Below, piece by piece: positions 636 through 58,591 of a stretch of DNA of 64,000 nucleotides. Position 1 is the first letter of the stretch, and each line of letters opens with the position of its first letter. The position numbers and the translations under genes were made by a program. The notes under the pieces are model-generated. The model saw only the letters and a program-made list of their open reading frames with translations. It had not been told where the DNA came from and ran no database searches. Source of the DNA: Escherichia coli (GTDB lineage Bacteria > Pseudomonadota > Gammaproteobacteria > Enterobacterales > Enterobacteriaceae); assembly GCF_003991155.1 (NCBI RefSeq), contig NZ_CP031297.1. One strand, 5' to 3'.

Positions 636-771
636 AACAAAGCTCCTTAATTGCTTGATTGTGTTGTAAGGGCTGCAACGAAGGTCGAAGAGCGATGCGG
701 CCCTTATTTATGATTATTACAGCATCATAAAATAATATCAAGAGACAATAAAACGATACCAAGAAACAAAA

Positions 772-787
772 CTTTCACATGTGAAAG
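772..787. promoter_or_regulatory. Perfect 16-bp palindrome CTTTCACATGTGAAAG (copy 1 of 4), putative operator
   Basis: Exact palindrome in an AT-rich divergent intergenic region; identical copies at 18191, 39250 and 54646. Confidence 0.5.
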
Positions 788-847
788 TCTCCCCGCTGTC
801 CACCTCGCACACTCCAAACGCCCAAACGCCCAAATAACTTGTCTATC

Positions 848-875
848 TGCCCAAAATGGGCGCGTAAGCGTCCGA
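848..875 (+). promoter_or_regulatory. Motif B (GCCC-AAAAT-GGGC dyad followed by TAAGCG), copy 1 of 8
   Basis: Recurring dyad/hairpin motif located upstream of plus-strand transcription units. Confidence 0.4.
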
Positions 876-5018: not shown

Positions 5019-5674
5019 TGGCAGTCATTTACTACGGCGAGGGAACCCATGACGCCGGTTTCGTCGGGTTCCGTGTCGCACGAACAGTTGGGGTGGCGGA
5101 TGATTACCGGCAGGAATACTTCTCCTTGAGAGAGTATTCCTACGCAACAGCTCACCGGCTGGCCTACAGCTTGGACCGAAAGTGGGAAGCTGAGGCAGAA
5201 GAGGTGAAGCGTCAGAATAAGACTTGTAAGCGGCGACGCAACTCCGGGCCAAATATCATTGCTGAGGGGCTGAGGGCTTATATCAGTATCGAGAACCGGA
5301 GCCGGATGGGGGTGAAGAGAACCTACTTCGCACCTTGTTTTCTCGTCACAAAGCCAGGCTACGGCAATGGGGATATTGTTTTCAGGATTTCCACTCATGG
5401 CTACGCAGAAGCCTACGAAAAGGCGGTGGAAAAATATTGTGAGATCCATGATTTGACGGATGAGCAGTATGTTGAGTTGCTTGACCGTATGCCGAGTACA
5501 GAGGTGTTCACTGGATACCTGCTGAATGCTCTTTTAATACGCGGTCATCGCGCCACAAAAGCTGAAATACTGAGTAAGCTGGGGGCTGCGAAGAATGAAG
5601 ATGACATCACCAATAGCAAAGGGAAAAGCGGCCACAACAGAGTGCGTTGCCCAGAGTATCGGTGGGCGCAATAA
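5018..5674 (+). CDS. Hypothetical protein
   Basis: ATG overlaps preceding stop (TAATG); AAGGAAGG upstream. Confidence 0.75.
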   Translation: MAVIYYGEGTHDAGFVGFRVARTVGVADDYRQEYFSLREYSYATAHRLAYSLDRKWEAEAEEVKRQNKTCKRRRNSGPNIIAEGLRAYISIENRSRMGVKRTYFAPCFLVTKPGYGNGDIVFRISTHGYAEAYEKAVEKYCEIHDLTDEQYVELLDRMPSTEVFTGYLLNALLIRGHRATKAEILSKLGAAKNEDDITNSKGKSGHNRVRCPEYRWAQ

Positions 5675-7451: not shown

Positions 7452-9644
7452 TCAATCCATAAAGTCCGACTTTTTGAAGGGCATAGTGCCTTTGCAATCG
7501 GGATACGCTGTGCAGCCCCAGAACTTAGAGGCTCGTTTCTTGCCAGGGGCTTTTCCTTTCCTGAGACGCATCGGGCTACCGCAATCTGGGCAGTCTGGAC
7601 AATCCTCCGCCGCGATACGTTTCTCGGGTTTCCCTCGGTTGTCTGGGAACGTCTTCTTGCAAGCCTCGTTCTGGCAGCCCCAGAAAAAACCGTTCTTCCC
7701 TTTGATCCGGTGCATCTCTCCACCGCAGTTGAAGCATTCGTGTGAAGGAGGCTTCGCGCCCTCGAAGGCTTTAGCCATCGCGCCACCTTCTTTGGTCAGA
7801 ACCGGTGCGGCCACTTTGAGCTGCTCAACCATTTGGCAGATCCAGGTGGAAATCTGCTTCATGAAGACAGACATGTTCCCGGAGCCGGAGGCAACTTTCT
7901 CAAGCTCCTGCTCCCAAGCCGCAGTCATGCCGGGTGATTTGATGGCTGGTGGAAGCACTGCTATAAGCGCATGAGCCTTATCAGTTGCAAGCAGTACCTT
8001 TTTCTGACGCTTGAAGTAGCCTTTATCAACAGCGCCCTGGATGATGCTTGCGCGTGTTGCTGGAGTGCCTAAACCGGCTGTGTCTTTGAGGATTTGTTTG
8101 AACTTCTCCTCAGTCACGAACCGGGCAATGTTCTCCATCGCGGCAAGCAATGTGGCTTCGGTGAAGTGCGGTGCTGGCCGCGTCATTTTGTTTGCCAGCT
8201 CGGCCCCATTCAGCAAGGCAGGTTCGCCCTGGCTAACCCTGGGGAGCTTCTCTTGTTCAACCGGCGCGTCGGTGTCTTCCCCCTCGTCCTTGGGACTGCT
8301 TTCACTATCAGAAGCAAACAAAACCTTCCAGCCTTGTTTGGTAGGTGTCTTACCAGCGGACGCAAAGAGGTGACGCCCACACTGCACCTCGATGGAGGTT
8401 TTGGTGAACTCGAACTCGCTGTAGAACTGCGCGATGTAGAAACGACGGATGGCGTCGTAAAGATTGAACTCGATCTCAGACATGGCACTGATGTCTGTTC
8501 TGGCCGGTGTTGGAATGATCGCGTGGTGCGCGGTCACTTTGGCGTCATTGAATACCCTGGCCTTGCGATGAGGATCTGCGCCAGCCACCAGCCCAGAGAC
8601 GTTCTGATCGGACAAAATGAGCGCCTGGAGAATGTCCGGAATGTCTTCCTTTTGGCTCTCGGGTAGATAACGACTGTCAGTACGAGGGTAGGTGGTCGCT
8701 TTGTGCGTCTCGTACAGAGCTTGAGCTGCATCCAGTACCTGCTGAGCTGTGTATCCCCATCGTTTGCTCGCGTATTGTTGCAGCGACGTTAGATCGAAGG
8801 GGAGGGGGGCTGACTCTTTACCTGGTTTGGTTTCTGCTTTGCTGATAACAGCATTGGCACCATTGACCTGGGAGGCTACCTGCTCGGCATAGGCCTTATT
8901 GACGCACCGGCCTTGCTCGTCACTGCACTCTTCTGGTGGTATCCATTGGGCGGCAAACTGTCCATTCTGTACGGACACGTTCACACCCAGAGTCCAGTAT
9001 GGTGAGGGGGTGAAACCGGCGATCTCTCGGTCCCGTTGACAAACAAGAGCGACGGTTGGGGTGATAACCCTGCCAACGTGAAGAGTGTGGTTGAAGCCGA
9101 CATCTCGGGCCAGCACTGTGTAGAGGCGGCTCACGTTCATGCCTACCAACCAGTCAGCGCGTTGCCGTGCCAATGCGGCGTAGTAGAGTGAGACCGTATC
9201 CTTGCCATCCTTTACGTTGTTCAGCGCTTTCTTGATGCTTGACTCATCGAGAGCCGTCAAACAAACTCGGCGAATAGGGCCAGAGTAGCGGAATCGATCC
9301 AGAAGCGAACGGGCGATAGCCTCACCTTCTCGGTCGTAGTCCGTTGAGATGTAGATGGTGCTCGCCTTTTTGACCAGTCCCTCAACAATTTTGTACTGTT
9401 TGAACGCACTCTTGCGAACGTTGTACCGCCATGACTCTGGTGCAATAGGGAGGGTCTCCAGTGACCATGACTTGTAGCGTTCGTCATAATCGTCTGGCAT
9501 ATACAATTCCAGCAGGTGGCCGAACGCCCACGTAATAACGCGGTTTCCTCCATCATGGAGAAATCCATCACCTCGTTGGGAGGCCTTCATTACGCCAGCC
9601 AAATCTTTTGCCTGAGAAGGCTTCTCGCAGATATAAAGGTCCAT
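7452..9644 (-). CDS. topB: DNA topoisomerase III with C-terminal zinc-ribbon repeats
   Basis: 730 aa; Toprim N-terminus (ISTDYDREGEAIA), type IA topoisomerase core, C-terminal CxxC clusters; GAGGAG SD. Confidence 0.95.
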   Translation of the reverse strand: MDLYICEKPSQAKDLAGVMKASQRGDGFLHDGGNRVITWAFGHLLELYMPDDYDERYKSWSLETLPIAPESWRYNVRKSAFKQYKIVEGLVKKASTIYISTDYDREGEAIARSLLDRFRYSGPIRRVCLTALDESSIKKALNNVKDGKDTVSLYYAALARQRADWLVGMNVSRLYTVLARDVGFNHTLHVGRVITPTVALVCQRDREIAGFTPSPYWTLGVNVSVQNGQFAAQWIPPEECSDEQGRCVNKAYAEQVASQVNGANAVISKAETKPGKESAPLPFDLTSLQQYASKRWGYTAQQVLDAAQALYETHKATTYPRTDSRYLPESQKEDIPDILQALILSDQNVSGLVAGADPHRKARVFNDAKVTAHHAIIPTPARTDISAMSEIEFNLYDAIRRFYIAQFYSEFEFTKTSIEVQCGRHLFASAGKTPTKQGWKVLFASDSESSPKDEGEDTDAPVEQEKLPRVSQGEPALLNGAELANKMTRPAPHFTEATLLAAMENIARFVTEEKFKQILKDTAGLGTPATRASIIQGAVDKGYFKRQKKVLLATDKAHALIAVLPPAIKSPGMTAAWEQELEKVASGSGNMSVFMKQISTWICQMVEQLKVAAPVLTKEGGAMAKAFEGAKPPSHECFNCGGEMHRIKGKNGFFWGCQNEACKKTFPDNRGKPEKRIAAEDCPDCPDCGSPMRLRKGKAPGKKRASKFWGCTAYPDCKGTMPFKKSDFMD

Positions 9645-18164: not shown

Positions 18165-18190
18165 AACAAGCGGCCATCGGCCGCTTTGAA

Positions 18191-18206
18191 CTTTCACATG
18201 TGAAAG
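18191..18206. promoter_or_regulatory. Palindrome CTTTCACATGTGAAAG (copy 2)
   Basis: Exact copy, intergenic. Confidence 0.5.
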
Positions 18207-18251
18207 TTTTTCGCCTCCCGCTCTTATCATCTCCTCGAATAAACCTCCATA

Positions 18252-18281
18252 AAGTGCCCAAAATGGGCCGTAACAGCACTG
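18252..18281 (+). promoter_or_regulatory. Motif B (GTGCCC-AAAAT-GGGC ... TAACAGCA), copy 2
   Basis: About 45 bp downstream of palindrome copy 2. Confidence 0.4.
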
Positions 18282-18344
18282 TTCCTAGATTGATCAATTA
18301 AGAGACGATTACTCCGTGATGACGACAAGTTATTTGGAGGGTCT

Positions 18345-18488
18345 ATGTCCGCACAAGCTCACGTCAGAGAAAGCGAAAGCTCATCTGGTTCATTCATCTC
18401 CTGGCAGTTCCTTGTCTGGCAGGTGATGTTCGTTATAGGTGTTGTTGCAGGGATGAACCTGGAACACGCATTCAATTTTCTAGGTTAA
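18345..18488 (+). CDS. Small hydrophobic protein (47 aa)
   Basis: ATG with GGAGGG SD; stop overlaps next start (TAATG); not in ORF track (below size cutoff). Confidence 0.35.
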   Translation: MSAQAHVRESESSSGSFISWQFLVWQVMFVIGVVAGMNLEHAFNFLG

Positions 18489-38794: not shown

Positions 38795-39655
38795 TTACGC
38801 TTCTGGGTAAACAAATAACTCTGCTTTTCCCTGATCAAGAAGGTAAGGGAAAGCAACTTTTTCGCCATTATCCAGCTCAACCGATTTTGGAGCAAGGTAG
38901 AGGTAGGCCCAAGCTGGTAGCTGTTTGCTAATAGCTGCGTAGATCGCTTGCTGAGGAGCATGGCTTGCTGCCCCATTACCGACATTCACAAAGTTGTATG
39001 CGGTCTCATGGCCTGATGTGAAGGCATACGCTGTACCTTGAACGCCAGAGACAAAATTAGGAGCTGACCCTAGGCGAGGCTCCACGATTTTCACCTTAAC
39101 GGAACACATGTCAGCTACCTTACTTTGTCCGTTCACCCACGTCGGGCAACCCCATTCATTCTTGTAGAACTGATAGGTTAGGCGACCGTCTTTGTCATAC
39201 AGAAGCGTGAAATTGGCACCCAAATCAGTCAGCGCTGACTCAATGGAAACTTTCACATGTGAAAGAAATTTGGCCTGAGCGTCTGCCGGTGAAACTGCTT
39301 CGTTAGCAGGCATCCAAGCGATCAAGCTATTGCGAGCGCCATGCTGTTTGGGGCCGATAGCCCAGTTCGCAAGGTTGACCAAGCCACCTTGCCAGTCGGT
39401 CATTCCGAGCTGAGGGGACATGTAGCCAGACAGCACGTAGGCTGCCCCAAACGTTTTGGTGTCGGTCAGACGCTCCAGCTTGTCACGCGGAACAGAAGCG
39501 TCTTGGATGCCTGTTACCAGGCCACCGGCCTCCGCGATGTTGTAAGCGCGACTGTGATTGGTTTTGTACGCTGTGGGTTCGTAACTGCTGGTGGATGCAC
39601 AGCCAGATAGAGCTGCTACAGCCAGAGCCACGGTGGTGATTAAAGCCTTTTTCAT
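38795..39655 (-). CDS. Lipoprotein (LSGC lipobox)
   Basis: GGAGA SD; signal peptide + lipobox. Confidence 0.8.
   Translation of the reverse strand: MKKALITTVALAVAALSGCASTSSYEPTAYKTNHSRAYNIAEAGGLVTGIQDASVPRDKLERLTDTKTFGAAYVLSGYMSPQLGMTDWQGGLVNLANWAIGPKQHGARNSLIAWMPANEAVSPADAQAKFLSHVKVSIESALTDLGANFTLLYDKDGRLTYQFYKNEWGCPTWVNGQSKVADMCSVKVKIVEPRLGSAPNFVSGVQGTAYAFTSGHETAYNFVNVGNGAASHAPQQAIYAAISKQLPAWAYLYLAPKSVELDNGEKVAFPYLLDQGKAELFVYPEA
39250..39265. promoter_or_regulatory. Palindrome CTTTCACATGTGAAAG (copy 3), located inside the lipoprotein gene
   Basis: Exact copy within coding sequence. Confidence 0.35.
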
Positions 39656-40565: not shown

Positions 40566-40616
40566 AGTCGCTCTGCGGCTATAGGTGAGATAGCTGGTCT
40601 CCGAAAACAAACAGCA
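40566..40616 (+). promoter_or_regulatory. Conserved leader element C, copy 1 (hairpin GAGA-TAGCTGG-TCTC + CGAAAACAAACAGCA)
   Basis: Seven related copies, each before a gene block. Confidence 0.45.
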
Positions 40617-40713
40617 TCTAGTCTTATGCCGTATGGCATTACTTAACCCCAAGCCGGGGGCTTCTCCCGGTTTTCGGGTGTTGCCCCTGTTTTTTTTACA
40701 TAGGAGCAACACC

Positions 40714-41034: not shown

Positions 41035-41073
41035 TAACTGTCGCTGAGTAATCTTCGACACTTTCAAACCCAT

Positions 41074-41113
41074 CGGGGCAACCATACCCCGACGGGGATG
41101 TTGCCCCTTTTTG
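41074..41113 (+). terminator. Terminator-like hairpin (GGGGCAAC ... GTTGCCCC + TTTTT)
   Basis: GC stem + T-run after gene 40714..41034. Confidence 0.45.
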
Positions 41114-41523: not shown

Positions 41524-41600
41524 GGGAGTAGCCTCCAGGAGAGGCTACTCTCCTCGCTCCTTAAAAGTCTTCTTACTCATGGTGAATACCATCAGTAAGC

Positions 41601-41660
41601 AGATTTTGTTCTCTTCGGAGAGCGAAAAGTGCGATAGCTGGTCGCCAAAAACAAACAGCA
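41601..41660 (+). promoter_or_regulatory. Leader element C, copy 2 (hairpin CTCTTCGGAGAG, hairpin GCGA-TAGCTGG-TCGC, CAAAAACAAACAGCA)
   Basis: Part of a 121-bp block identical to 46436..46556. Confidence 0.5.
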
Positions 41661-41742
41661 AATTAACGTTAATTTACTAGCCCAACCGGGCGCATCCGCC
41701 CGGTTCGGGACGTGGTGCGCCTGTCACAATAGGAGCGCACCT

Positions 41743-42721: not shown

Positions 42722-43630
42722 ATGAAGAAAAATGACTGTTTGTGCCGTCGTTACACTGCTAAAGAGTGGGGCAATGACGAAACCACAATAGAAGTCTTCA
42801 TTGGCTACAAGTTGCTCCGGGAGCCCAGCTCCTCGGAGCCAGGCCAATTCACGATGGTCGAGCTACGCCGAACCGTCACTGATGGGAAAGCTGAAAATTG
42901 GTCTGAGACAAAGCTCGAAGGACCTTTTGAAGCTAACGGCCCAGACACGATCCCAATGTCCTACAAGGACAAAGAAAGCCAGTATGTGTCACAGTTTCTC
43001 AGCCAGGGGTACACCTTTCTGGATGAGGTGCTGGTAAACGCAGAGACACAGACGGTGCTGGAAGGGGGGAATGTTTCAGCCGGACAAACAGCCAGCTTGG
43101 GATCTCTCAACTGGCTGTTATCTCCGCCCTCTGAGTTACCTCCAGGTGACATAAACCTCTTCAAAGGTTTTGTTGCTGGGGTTTTTGCCAAAGGAGCCGG
43201 TTTAATCGGCTTTGAGGTTGCTCGGAGCGAAGGCTCAAATGACTTGCTACCCAGTGTGCTGATGCGTACTGACAGCGGTTATGAGCTTGGGGTTAGCACT
43301 GGACTAGGCGAAAACACTATCCATCCAGCTACGCTGGAAGGCGCTGGTGAACTCCGCCCGGAACATGGTCACAAACCCCTGCTGATGTTGGTTTACCTGC
43401 AACAGCGTTTCGCGGATGACTTTTCAAACGTAGAGAAGCCGCTGGTGGCATTCTGTGATGAACAGGGTGATACCTTCGACTACGAGCGTTTTGATTCACT
43501 AAAACCCCTCATTGAACGGTTTGGTTTCAGCTACGACGAAGTAAGAGCAGATGCAGAAAGGCTTGGCCTTGTATCTGAGCTGATTCGCCTGGCAGAGATC
43601 GACGCCGAACAAGAGGATCACTTTTTTTAA
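42722..43630 (+). CDS. Hypothetical protein
   Basis: AGAGGTGA SD; 302 aa. Confidence 0.8.
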   Translation: MKKNDCLCRRYTAKEWGNDETTIEVFIGYKLLREPSSSEPGQFTMVELRRTVTDGKAENWSETKLEGPFEANGPDTIPMSYKDKESQYVSQFLSQGYTFLDEVLVNAETQTVLEGGNVSAGQTASLGSLNWLLSPPSELPPGDINLFKGFVAGVFAKGAGLIGFEVARSEGSNDLLPSVLMRTDSGYELGVSTGLGENTIHPATLEGAGELRPEHGHKPLLMLVYLQQRFADDFSNVEKPLVAFCDEQGDTFDYERFDSLKPLIERFGFSYDEVRADAERLGLVSELIRLAEIDAEQEDHFF

Positions 43631-44221: not shown

Positions 44222-44238
44222 CACCGCCAACTCTTACT

Positions 44239-44284
44239 AAACCCCACGGGGGCACTCATGCCCCGAGGGGGTCATGGTGTCCTC
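44239..44284 (+). repeat. Intercistronic GC-hairpin element, example 2 (CATGGTGT pairs with ACACCATG at the recT start)
   Basis: Upstream segment is complementary to the SD/start region. Confidence 0.6.
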
Positions 44285-46378: not shown

Positions 46379-46435
46379 GTGGGGGATTTTCCCCCGCTTT
46401 CCCTTGGGGATTCTGGGAGTCTCCAACGGAAAGCA

Positions 46436-46495
46436 AGATTTTGTTCTCTTCGGAGAGCGAAAAGTGCGATAGCTGGTCGCCAAAAACAAACAGCA
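46436..46495 (+). promoter_or_regulatory. Leader element C, copy 3 (identical to copy 2)
   Basis: 121-bp identity with 41601..41721. Confidence 0.5.
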
Positions 46496-46577
46496 AATTA
46501 ACGTTAATTTACTAGCCCAACCGGGCGCATCCGCCCGGTTCGGGACGTGGTGCGCCCCCAACTTTTTGGAGTGCATC

Positions 46578-50178: not shown

Positions 50179-50267
50179 TGTTCACACAGCTCTCGTGGAA
50201 CAATCAAAGTGAGGAGGGAATACCCTCCCACTTTCTCAGAGGCCTTCATTGAGGGTTGCTGAGAAAG

Positions 50268-50327
50268 TGAATTTTGTCCTCTCTGAGGGCGAAACGTGCG
50301 ATAGCTGGTCGCCAAAAACAAACAGCA
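50268..50327 (+). promoter_or_regulatory. Leader element C, copy 4
   Basis: CCTCTCTGAGGG hairpin, GCGATAGCTGGTCGC hairpin, CAAAAACAAACAGCA. Confidence 0.5.
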
Positions 50328-50397
50328 TTCAACCTCAGCCTAAGGGCGCACTGCGCCTGACAGGCTCTGTGTGCCCAAGTTACTTTAAGGAGCACAC

Positions 50398-50937: not shown

Positions 50938-51027
50938 ATCGCCGTTCAACCATTAACCCTAATTAACCCTATGGGGCTCCGATAGCCCTGAGGGGACGGG
51001 GCTCCGCAATCGCAATAAGGAGTCCCT

Positions 51028-54198: not shown

Positions 54199-54266
54199 CT
54201 ATGACTGTAACCCCACTGGGGGCTTCATGCCCCTGTGGGGGCATGGTGCCCGTAAAAGGAGTCACC

Positions 54267-54620: not shown

Positions 54621-54645
54621 CCCCCTGCTTTCCCAGTGGCATCGA

Positions 54646-54661
54646 CTTTCACATGTGAAAG
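54646..54661. promoter_or_regulatory. Palindrome CTTTCACATGTGAAAG (copy 4)
   Basis: Exact copy 20 bp upstream of leader element C copy 5. Confidence 0.5.
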
Positions 54662-54681
54662 TTTGTGCCCCTCGGAAAGCA

Positions 54682-54741
54682 AGATTTTGCTCTCTGTCGA
54701 GAGTGAATAGTGAGGTAGCTGGCCTCCCCAAACAAACAGCA
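54682..54741 (+). promoter_or_regulatory. Leader element C, copy 5 (stems CTCTC/GAGAG and GAGG/CCTC)
   Basis: Stem sequences differ from other copies while base pairing is kept. Confidence 0.5.
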
Positions 54742-54811
54742 TTCTACATAACCCTTGGGGGATCACTGCCCCTCGGGCTGGTGGTTCCCTGACAAACATG
54801 GAGCCACAACT

Positions 54812-55156
54812 ATGACTACTCTTGCCAGCTTTGCGAATCCGATTTCTGTTATTCAACGCTCACCAACCAGTGGGGTGTTTGGCACAAATCAGTTCGTAGG
54901 AGACAAAGAGGGATTTGTACAAAAGGTGCTCGGAAAGTGGTACTGCAATCCAGGGAATACCATTCCCGTTGAGAGCATGTCCCACCTTGAGCAGGCGGAG
55001 AAACTGTATGACTTCTATGTCAAGTATCTCCAAGTGAAAGAAAAGATCTCTGTGAACCTTGGCCGGGTGCTGCATAAGCTGTACAGCACTGGTTCTATCA
55101 AGGAAGCAGAGATCGTGCTTGAAGCAATAAAGGCTCAGGCTGGCGTAACAGCTTGA
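54812..55156 (+). CDS. Hypothetical protein
   Basis: ATG at 54812 with GGAG SD. Confidence 0.7.
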   Translation: MTTLASFANPISVIQRSPTSGVFGTNQFVGDKEGFVQKVLGKWYCNPGNTIPVESMSHLEQAEKLYDFYVKYLQVKEKISVNLGRVLHKLYSTGSIKEAEIVLEAIKAQAGVTA

Positions 55157-55536: not shown

Positions 55537-55613
55537 GAACCACTTTAAACCCATCGGGGCCATTACTTCCCGATTGGGACGGTAGTGGCCTCTCAACCGA
55601 AAGGAGAGAGCTC

Positions 55614-58454: not shown

Positions 58455-58523
58455 TTCCCAGGGTGCTTCGGAAAGTGCCTTAGGCGCTCAAGTGCGGTAG
58501 CTGGCTGCCAAAAACAAACAGCA
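58455..58523 (+). promoter_or_regulatory. Leader element C, copy 6
   Basis: GCGGTAGCTGGCTGCCAAAAACAAACAGCA. Confidence 0.45.
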
Positions 58524-58591
58524 AATTATCAACCCTGACGGGAGCACCTCCTGTTAGGGGGGCTCCGTCATAAACTGAACGGAGATATAGC

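What the first reader, a model, noticed from the sequence alone, without database searches (positions are those of the whole stretch)
772..787. Perfect 16-bp palindrome CTTTCACATGTGAAAG present four times
Exact copies occur at 772..787, 18191..18206, 39250..39265 and 54646..54661. Three are intergenic and lie in front of gene blocks; one sits inside the lipoprotein gene at 38795..39655. Four exact copies of a 16-mer palindrome in 64 kb is strongly non-random and fits an operator for a dimeric regulator. No obvious regulator gene is identified in the window.
Basis: seen in the sequence. Interest (0 to 1): 0.6.

Follow-up and report, generated by a model that had tools for sequence, protein, structure and literature searches.

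The report
Known IncC plasmid parS centromere sites
The four identical palindromes are real, and they are four of the 14 published docking sites (parS) where the ParB partition protein of IncC multidrug-resistance plasmids binds so that plasmid copies are shared out at cell division; this was described in 2024, so it is not new.

Summary
Observation confirmed. CTTTCACATGTGAAAG occurs exactly four times, at the stated coordinates. There are no degenerate extra copies, and chance predicts about 0.4.

The window is the IncC (A/C2) conjugative plasmid backbone. It differs at 2 of 64,000 bases from pR148 positions 32001-96000.

The 14-bp core TTTCACATGTGAAA, flanked by AAAC/GTTT, is the published IncC parS (Muranyi et al., NAR 2024, PMC10954446). 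R55 carries 14 copies, and ParB bound three tested parS probes (two R55 copies and SGI1 DR2) in gel-shift assays. SGI1 mimics two copies to hijack partition.

The four window copies are the 8th to 11th of the 14 sites, listed near R55_55, R55_74, R55_91 and R55_109.

The cognate gene is parB, a ParB/KorB-domain protein with a GERRWRA motif.

All four sites are unchanged at orthologous positions in a Shewanella plasmid whose local flanks are 89% identical.

The "operator for a dimeric regulator" reading is partly right. The sites bind a dimeric helix-turn-helix protein, but the demonstrated role is as a centromere. Sites 1 and 2 lie 62 and 50 bp upstream of AcaCD-type boxes, so KorB-like regulation remains possible but untested.

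Verdict: already known, low interest.

The parts
769..790 (.). parS site 1 (AAAC-TTTCACATGTGAAA-GTCT). Intergenic, 176 bp upstream of the ORF starting at 962. By order it is the 'R55_55/vcrx036' site of the published list.
   Evidence: Exact core. Equals pR148 32773 and R55 43332. It is one flank base away from the perfect 22-bp site that was bound in gel shift. The core is conserved in the Shewanella plasmid while the spacer to its right is only 70% identical.
18188..18209 (.). parS site 2 (GAAC-TTTCACATGTGAAA-GTTT). Intergenic, after the 17502-18164 gene and its GC-rich hairpin, and ahead of the small ORF 18345-18488 and the traL block. This is the 'R55_74 / HS904_RS00445 / vcrx068' site.
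   Evidence: The 22 bp are 100% conserved in Shewanella baltica SF1039_p1.
39247..39268 (.). parS site 3 (AAAC-TTTCACATGTGAAA-GAAA; on the other strand TTTC-core-GTTT). It lies inside the lipoprotein gene and is the 'R55_91' intragenic site.
   Evidence: The 22 bp are 100% conserved against 84-90% identical flanks. Homologues at 39% identity encode LLSEMK at this position and lack the site, but carry a core 0.07-0.8 kb outside the gene.
54643..54664 (.). parS site 4 (CGAC-TTTCACATGTGAAA-GTTT). Intergenic, ahead of 54812-55156. This is the 'R55_109' site.
   Evidence: It sits at the centre of a longer imperfect palindrome, 54626-54681 (I2).
849..861 (+). AcaCD-box-like motif GCCCAAAATGGGC, 62 bp to the right of site 1.
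   Evidence: Regex hit. The promoter of vcrx036 is listed as AcaCD-regulated with an adjacent parS. Calling this motif the AcaCD box is my inference.
18256..18268 (+). AcaCD-box-like motif GCCCAAAATGGGC, 50 bp to the right of site 2.
   Evidence: The motif and its spacing are conserved in the Shewanella plasmid. vcrx068 is listed as an AcaCD-regulated promoter with a parS.
38795..39655 (-). Lipoprotein gene (286 aa, lipobox LSGC) that contains site 3.

Best explanation
The four palindromes are four of the 14 parS centromere-like sites of an IncC conjugative plasmid.

Each site is a 22-bp inverted repeat: a 14-bp invariant core, TTTCACATGTGAAA, with AAAC/GTTT-type flanks. It is bound by a symmetric oligomer of the plasmid's ParB. 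ParB is the second gene of the parAB053 operon and ends 610 bp to the left of the window.

Shown in the literature:
- ParB binds such sites specifically.
- A 4-bp insertion at the centre abolishes binding.
- ParA plus ParB stabilise a replicon that carries one site.
- Extra copies, such as the two mimic sites on SGI1, destabilise the plasmid, which is centromere-type incompatibility.

Inferred here: ParB carries the ParB N-terminal domain, an HTH and a KorB domain, with the GERRWRA and ENxQR motifs of ParB-family CTPases. It therefore probably loads at these sites as a CTP-dependent clamp and spreads, giving ParA several partition-complex nucleation points around the 130-kb backbone.

A second, regulatory role on neighbouring AcaCD-activated promoters (sites 1 and 2) is possible but unproven.
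For: Identity of the element: the window differs at 2 of 64,000 bases from pR148 positions 32001-96000, and is 100% identical over the first 20 kb to many IncC plasmids.

Identity of the motif: the paper gives the core as TTTCACATGTGAAA with AAAC/GTTT flanks and 14 copies in R55. It lists them near R55_6, _08, _13, _14, _24, _29, parA, _55, _74, _91, _109, _130/xerC, _170 and _174. Four are intragenic: _6, _08, _91 and xerC.

I find 14 exact cores in pR148, in the same order and with the same four intragenic ones. The window copies are numbers 8-11.

Cognate protein: pR148 and R55 encode the same ParB, WP_001207227.1, which is the R55 ParB used in the gel shifts. Its Pfam domains are KorB (4e-38), ParB_N and HTH_ParB. 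Its best solved relatives are KorB, Noc and Spo0J, and the GERRWRA motif aligns.

Selection on the sites:
- Shewanella baltica SF1039_p1 has 13 exact cores.
- All four window sites are retained there at orthologous positions, while their local flanks are 89% identical. The chance of 64 unchanged bases is about 7e-4, and of 13 unchanged cores about 1e-9.
- The identical core accompanies ParB orthologues down to 51% identity.

No core lies in the antibiotic-resistance insertions at about 100-138 kb of pR148.
Against: None of the four window copies was itself used as a gel-shift probe. The tested probes were the parA-promoter copy, the eexC copy and SGI1 DR2.

The 14-bp core alone was not bound, so flanks matter, and each window copy deviates from the perfect 22-mer at 1-3 flank positions.

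No one has shown which of the 14 copies are needed for partition.

CTP binding, clamp loading and spreading by IncC ParB are inferred from motifs and from KorB (PMC11790492), not measured.
Confidence: 0.9

Rival explanations
1. The sites are mainly transcriptional operators. ParB, acting like KorB of RK2, or another dimeric repressor, binds them to control the gene blocks to their right, in particular AcaCD-activated transfer and maintenance operons. Partition would be secondary for these four copies.
For: ParB has a KorB domain. The parA-promoter copy overlaps the -10 box, and IncC plasmids repress PparA 8-11 fold. In pR148, 5 of 14 cores lie within 75 bp of one of only 17 GCCC-N5-GGGC boxes, where about 0.24 is expected (my Poisson estimate from the counts is about 5e-6). 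In related elements, 25 of 166 cores have such a box within 150 bp, against about 4 expected. The authors raise this idea themselves and say work is ongoing. KorB is known to silence at a distance as a CTP clamp (PMC11790492).
Against: No expression data exist for these promoters. None of the four sites overlaps a sigma-70-like -35/-10. Sites 3 and 4 have no AcaCD-like box nearby, and site 3 is inside a convergently oriented gene. The spacer between site 1 and its box is poorly conserved and has indels, which argues against a fixed protein-protein geometry. The partition and incompatibility functions are demonstrated.
Confidence: 0.3
2. The palindromes act at the RNA level, as hairpins: terminators, processing sites or stability elements.
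For: Sites 2 and 4 fold better than shuffled sequence (-9.7 kcal/mol, z = -3.0; -15.5 kcal/mol, z = -4.0). Site 2 is followed by TTTTT.
Against: Site 1 (z = -1.8) and site 3 (z = 0.06) do not fold better than shuffles. The terminator scan calls none of them. The stem is AT-rich with a 4-nt loop. One copy is antisense inside a gene. Rfam finds nothing in the window. Protein binding to the double-stranded site is shown experimentally.
Confidence: 0.02
3. The palindrome is the target of a restriction-modification, methylation or site-specific recombination enzyme of the plasmid, or a remnant of a small mobile repeat.
For: The plasmid encodes several methyltransferases and a XerC-like recombinase. 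The core contains ACATGT and CATG. One exact core and one 1-mismatch copy lie inside the xerC-like gene.
Against: A specific sequence 16-22 bp long far exceeds the length of restriction-modification targets. The flanks of the copies are unrelated, so this is not a mobile repeat. No rearrangements are seen between the copies in about 1,000 plasmids, which are collinear over the first 20 kb. ParB binding explains the sequence requirements, including the loss of binding after a central 4-bp insertion.
Confidence: 0.02

Closest known systems
IncC/IncA plasmid parS sites of the parAB053 system (R55; Muranyi, Szabo, Acsai & Kiss, Nucleic Acids Res 2024, PMC10954446)
   Same: The 14-bp core, the flank pattern, the copy number (14), the order of sites on the backbone, which four are intragenic, and the ParB protein (WP_001207227.1) are all the same. 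The window copies are those sites.
   Different: Nothing of substance differs. These four particular copies were not the ones used as gel-shift probes.
SGI1 DR1/DR2 parS mimics
   Same: The same 22-bp motif. It is bound by IncC ParB and lies next to AcaCD-dependent promoters, 10 bp from the box in SGI1.
   Different: Those copies sit on a chromosomal island that parasitises the plasmid's partition system. The window copies are the plasmid's own sites, and their distances to the AcaCD-like boxes are larger (50 and 62 bp).
KorB and its 12 OB operators (TTTAGCSGCTAAA) on IncP-1 plasmid RK2/RP4
   Same: A ParB-family protein with a KorB domain. About a dozen palindromic sites are dispersed round a broad-host-range conjugative plasmid, some beside promoters and some far from them. 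One protein serves partition with a ParA partner and can repress transcription. KorB is the best solved-structure match (8qa8, E = 9e-21).
   Different: The site sequence and length are different. Global regulation by IncC ParB has not been shown. IncC ParB has GERRWRA where KorB has GARRYRG. No KorA- or TrbA-like clamp-locking partner has been identified for IncC, although the 2024 paper infers an unidentified extra regulator of PparA.
Chromosomal ParB/Spo0J-parS (consensus TGTTTCACGTGAAACA, from my own knowledge of the literature)
   Same: The half-site hexamer is the same: TTTCAC / GTGAAA. The N-terminal and HTH domains are homologous (Spo0J 1vz0 E = 8e-19, Noc 7ol9 E = 2e-19).
   Different: The IncC site has two extra central base pairs (TTTCAC-AT-GTGAAA) and different outer flanks. 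The half-sites are therefore spaced differently, and cross-binding with host ParB is not expected (inference, untested). The sites are spread over the replicon rather than clustered only at the origin.

Membership tests
IncC/IncA parS (ParB-binding centromere sites) | Invariant 14-bp core TTTCACATGTGAAA | tested here: met
   All four copies match exactly.
IncC/IncA parS (ParB-binding centromere sites) | AAAC / GTTT-type flanks, with G then T immediately to the right of the core. These are required because the core alone is not bound. | tested here: met
   Flanks are AAAC/GTCT, GAAC/GTTT, AAAC/GAAA (TTTC/GTTT on the other strand) and CGAC/GTTT. G follows the core in 4 of 4 copies. GT follows in 3 of 4 on the + strand, and in 4 of 4 if site 3 is read on the other strand. 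There are 1-3 deviations from the perfect 22-mer, within the range of the 14 published sites.
IncC/IncA parS (ParB-binding centromere sites) | Located on the conserved A/C backbone at the published positions | tested here: met
   The window is pR148 32001-96000. There are 14 cores in the published order with the same four intragenic ones, and site 1 was also found at the matching R55 position. The figure naming each site could not be read, so the match is by order and gene context.
IncC/IncA parS (ParB-binding centromere sites) | Cognate parA-parB(-053) operon on the same replicon | tested here: met
   In pR148, parA is at 29421-30206, parB at 30210-31391 and 053 at 31440-31712, just left of the window start at 32001. 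The ParB protein accession is identical to that of R55, and it has KorB, ParB_N and HTH_ParB domains.
IncC/IncA parS (ParB-binding centromere sites) | Specific binding by ParB, and a contribution to partition or incompatibility | not testable with these tools
   Published gel shifts exist for three other copies, and stability and incompatibility assays for SGI1 copies. There is no direct test of these four.
IncC/IncA parS (ParB-binding centromere sites) | Purifying selection on the site relative to its surroundings | tested here: met
   In the Shewanella baltica plasmid the four 16-mers are unchanged against 89% identical flanks (P about 7e-4), and 13 of the cores are unchanged (P about 1e-9).
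Transcriptional operator (KorB-OB-like) | Site overlaps, or lies at a functional distance from, a promoter whose activity changes when the protein binds | tested here: inconclusive
   There is no overlap with sigma-70-like hexamers. Sites 1 and 2 are 62 and 50 bp upstream of AcaCD-like boxes, and such co-location is enriched plasmid-wide. Sites 3 and 4 have no such box. No expression data are available.
ParB-CTPase sliding clamp loaded at parS | CTP-binding motifs (GERRxRA, ENxQR) in the N-terminal domain, plus CTP-dependent clamp closure at the site | tested here: inconclusive
   The motifs GERRWRA and IENIQRDDL are present and align to KorB and Noc. The biochemistry cannot be tested here.

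The most novel reading that the evidence does not exclude
IncC ParB may be a KorB-like CTP clamp with two jobs. From the parS copies placed beside AcaCD boxes (window sites 1 and 2, and three more on the plasmid) it would tune AcaCD-activated transfer and maintenance operons. That would couple plasmid partition, or ParB titration by parasitic islands, to conjugation control.

The same palindrome also appears to be a shared 'centromere currency' used well beyond SGI1. Islands of the MGIVchHai6 type, which encode a MobI homologue, occur in many marine Gammaproteobacteria. They carry two copies about 11-12 kb apart, one of them about 140 bp from an AcaCD-like box.
Probability: 0.3. Interest if true: 0.5.

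Novelty: already known. Interest (0 to 1): 0.15.

Why it matters
IncC plasmids are major carriers of carbapenemase and other resistance genes. Their stable inheritance, and their eviction by SGI1-type islands, both depend on ParB binding to these sites.

For the scan, the value lies in showing that a reader working from sequence alone recovered a genuine protein-binding motif that had already been validated experimentally.

Two questions remain open, and both could be tested:
- whether the promoter-adjacent copies also regulate AcaCD-dependent operons;
- how widely other mobilisable islands borrow the same centromere.

Tried and rejected
- Chance: rejected by shuffles.
- Dispersed repeat or mobile element: rejected, because the flanks of the four copies do not align.
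- RNA hairpin or terminator: folding is significant for only two of the four copies, and no terminator calls were made. Rfam found nothing in the window.
- Literal search of papers for the 16-mer: no hit. The motif was found through a keyword search instead.
- R55 under its GenBank number JQ010984 is not in the collections. The RefSeq copy NC_016976 was used instead.
- The 'spread' listing of ParB tblastn hits skipped the 60-80% identity class. Diverged relatives came from the genome contigs pattern scan instead.
- Eight Heimdallarchaeota hits in that scan are an unrelated coincidence. The palindrome there lies inside what looks like an intron-containing tRNA gene. ARAGORN did not call this gene.
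- A follow-up paper on ParB as a global regulator of IncC was looked for and not found in the searchable library.

Full report
**1. Observation**

The 16-mer CTTTCACATGTGAAAG occurs exactly at 772, 18191, 39250 and 54646. No further match exists at up to 3 mismatches. The 14-bp core TTTCACATGTGAAA has no extra match at up to 2 mismatches. Shuffled sequence gives a mean of 0.39 and 0.27 matches, and none of 100 shuffles reaches four.

Aligning 100 bp on each side of the four copies shows no shared sequence beyond one extra A on the left. These are four independent sites, not copies of a larger repeat.

- Three copies are intergenic.
- The copy at 39250 lies in the minus-strand gene 38795-39655.
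- That gene's product begins MKKALITTVALAVAALSGC, a lipoprotein signal, and the palindrome encodes L-S-H-V-K.

**2. What the window is**

The first 20 kb are 100% identical to many IncC (A/C2) conjugative multidrug-resistance plasmids. The whole window differs at 2 of 64,000 positions from pR148 (NC_019380) coordinates 32001-96000.

The window covers the methylase and vcrx genes, topoisomerase III, traI/mobH, traD, the traL-traN transfer blocks, bet/exo/ssb and downstream backbone genes.

**3. What the palindrome is**

A full-text search led to Muranyi et al., Nucleic Acids Res 2024 (PMC10954446). That paper reports the following:
- Purified ParB, the second gene of parAB053, binds three tested 22-bp sites specifically.
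- The core alone is not bound.
- A 4-bp insertion at the centre abolishes binding.
- ParA plus ParB stabilise a replicon carrying one site.
- SGI1 carries two mimic sites that stabilise SGI1 and expel the plasmid.

The paper lists the sites by nearest ORF: R55_6, _08, _13, _14, _24, _29, parA, _55, _74, _91, _109, _130/xerC, _170 and _174. The copies in _6, _08, _91 and xerC are intragenic.

On pR148 I find 14 exact cores, plus one copy with a single mismatch, in that same order and with the same four intragenic ones. The window copies are the 8th to 11th. I conclude they are the published R55_55, R55_74, R55_91 and R55_109 sites.

Site 1 was also located at the matching position of R55 itself. 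The perfect 22-mer at the eexC site and the AATC variant at the parA promoter match the paper's description.

**4. The binding protein**

In pR148, parA is at 29421-30206, parB at 30210-31391 and 053 at 31440-31712.

ParB of pR148 and of R55 share one protein accession. Pfam finds KorB (4e-38), ParB_N (1e-12) and HTH_ParB (2e-10). The closest solved structures are KorB (8qa8), Noc and Spo0J. The alignment shows GERRWRA and IENIQRDDL, the motifs that bind CTP in this family.

By analogy with KorB (PMC11790492), clamp loading at parS is likely. It has not been shown for this protein.

**5. Evidence of selection**

Shewanella baltica plasmid SF1039_p1 shares the backbone at about 86-94% identity and has 13 exact cores.

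All four window sites are present there at orthologous positions, with the 16-mer unchanged. Sequence within 150 bp on each side is 89% identical overall. If the sites drifted like their flanks, the chance of 64 unchanged bases would be about 7e-4, and of 13 unchanged cores about 1e-9.

Among them, ParB orthologues at 84%, 65% and 51% identity still accompany the identical core.

The intragenic copy shows turnover. Lipoprotein homologues at 91% identity keep it. Homologues at 39% identity encode LLSEMK there and lack it, but have a core 0.07-0.8 kb outside the gene.

**6. Operator or centromere?**

None of the three intergenic window sites overlaps a sigma-70-like promoter.

Sites 1 and 2 lie 62 and 50 bp to the left of GCCCAAAATGGGC motifs. 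I take these to be the AcaCD boxes of the vcrx036 and vcrx068 promoters, which the 2024 paper names as AcaCD-regulated promoters with an adjacent parS.

Plasmid-wide, 5 of 14 cores lie within 75 bp of one of only 17 such boxes. About 0.24 is expected, and my Poisson estimate from the counts is about 5e-6. The co-location is therefore not accidental.

However, the spacer at site 1 is poorly conserved and has indels. Sites 3 and 4 have no box, and no expression data exist. Repression is documented only at the parA promoter, where the site overlaps the -10 box.

My reading:
- binding site of a symmetric HTH protein: shown;
- centromere function: shown for the family, inferred for these four copies;
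- regulatory function at sites 1 and 2: plausible, about 0.3.

**7. Rivals**

- RNA hairpin function is inconsistent across the copies, with z-scores from 0.06 to -4.0.
- Rfam finds nothing in the window.
- A restriction, methylation or recombination target, or a mobile repeat, does not fit the length of the motif or its unrelated flanks.

**8. Comparison with known systems**

This is the IncC parS itself.

It works like KorB-OB of RK2, where a dozen dispersed palindromes are bound by a ParB/KorB protein that serves both partition and regulation.

It shares the half-site TTTCAC with chromosomal parS (TGTTTCACGTGAAACA, from my own knowledge) but has two extra central base pairs.

**9. Verdict**

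The finding is real and strongly non-random. It was correctly read as a protein-binding palindrome, but it was already described and tested experimentally in 2024. Novelty: already known. Interest: low.

The side observations listed separately are the only parts that may go beyond the literature I could search. They are the cores in MobI-type islands, the plasmid-wide enrichment next to AcaCD-like boxes, and a second repeat family next to site 4.

Noticed in passing
L024/L025 (Alcanivorax hongdengensis contig21, cores at contig positions 43060 and 54401); L015/L016 (Marinobacter sp. 1-4A, 528444 and 540745); L125/L126 (Idiomarina aquatica, 10762 and 22495); also L010, L026, L028, L029, L041-L043, L051, L056, L059, L060, L070, L077, L078, L098, L099: Chromosomal islands in marine Gammaproteobacteria carry two copies of the IncC parS core about 11-12 kb apart. 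These islands encode a distant MobI homologue (25-31% identity). L024/L025 also has an excisionase-like gene, type I restriction-modification genes, a resolvase and an S8 peptidase. One core (AAC-core-GTTTTGG) lies 77 bp downstream of the mobI-like ORF. The other (TGAC-core-GTCA) lies beside the excisionase-like gene and about 140 bp from an AcaCD-like box. The islands look like the MGIVchHai6-type islands of Rivard et al. 2020 (PMC7449626). The 2024 parS paper does not mention that island family.
   Followed up: partly
window 40583-40621, 41592-41665, 46427-46500, 50259-50332, 54673-54746, 58490-58528 (+ strand): A second repeat family has six intergenic copies, all on the + strand upstream of ORFs. 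Each has the invariant sequences TAGCTGG and AAACAAACAGCA, and a short stem around TAGCTGG that varies in a compensatory way (GCGA/TCGC, GAGG/CCTC, GAGA/TCTC). One copy starts 12 bp after parS site 4. Two copies are part of a 121-bp repeat that is 100% identical, at 41601-41721 and 46436-46556. There is no Rfam match and the function is unknown.
   Followed up: partly
window 54626-54681: parS site 4 sits at the centre of a longer imperfect palindrome with 31-nt arms that are 84% complementary. As RNA, the central 36 nt (54636-54671) fold at -15.5 kcal/mol (z = -4.0). The right arm runs into the repeat family described above.
   Followed up: partly
pR148 (L001-L004): cores at 5620, 18314, 32773, 50192 and 153530: Five of the 14 parS cores lie within 75 bp of a GCCC-N5-GGGC (AcaCD-like) box, and only 17 such boxes exist on the plasmid. 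The paper names four such promoters. At 18314 the box is 73 bp upstream of the core, so there the core would lie downstream of the promoter, just before the ORF that starts at 18344.
   Followed up: partly
L121 (Cupriavidus pampae contig, cores at 8080, 8311 and 8771; ParB-like gene from about 10091): Three exact cores with different flanks (CAC/GAC-core-GT) cluster upstream of a ParB-like gene. That gene is only 33% identical to IncC ParB, in a betaproteobacterium. This suggests the core is used by a wider ParB clade.
   Followed up: no
L022, L044, L045, L046, L061, L071, L119, L124 (Candidatus Heimdallarchaeota MAG contigs): The same 18-mer sits in a conserved stretch of about 110 nt flanked by GCCTCGA...TCGAGGCACCA. 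This looks like an intron-containing tRNA gene (probably tRNA-Glu UUC) in which the intron pairs with the anticodon arm. It is unrelated to parS. ARAGORN in its default mode did not call it.
   Followed up: partly
L034, L052, L090, L095, L103, L108, L110, L128 compared with window 38795-39655: A parS core recurs next to homologues of the lipoprotein gene across diverged plasmids and islands, but its position moves. It is intragenic in the A/C lineage and lies 0.07-0.8 kb outside the gene elsewhere.
   Followed up: partly
window 41063-41098, 44237-44272, 50965-50995, 54209-54239, 55544-55579, 63737-63767: A family of GC-rich hairpins of the form AACCCCAyGGGG...CCCCGAGGGG occurs at gene ends. 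They are probably intrinsic terminators or similar intergenic stem-loops.
   Followed up: no
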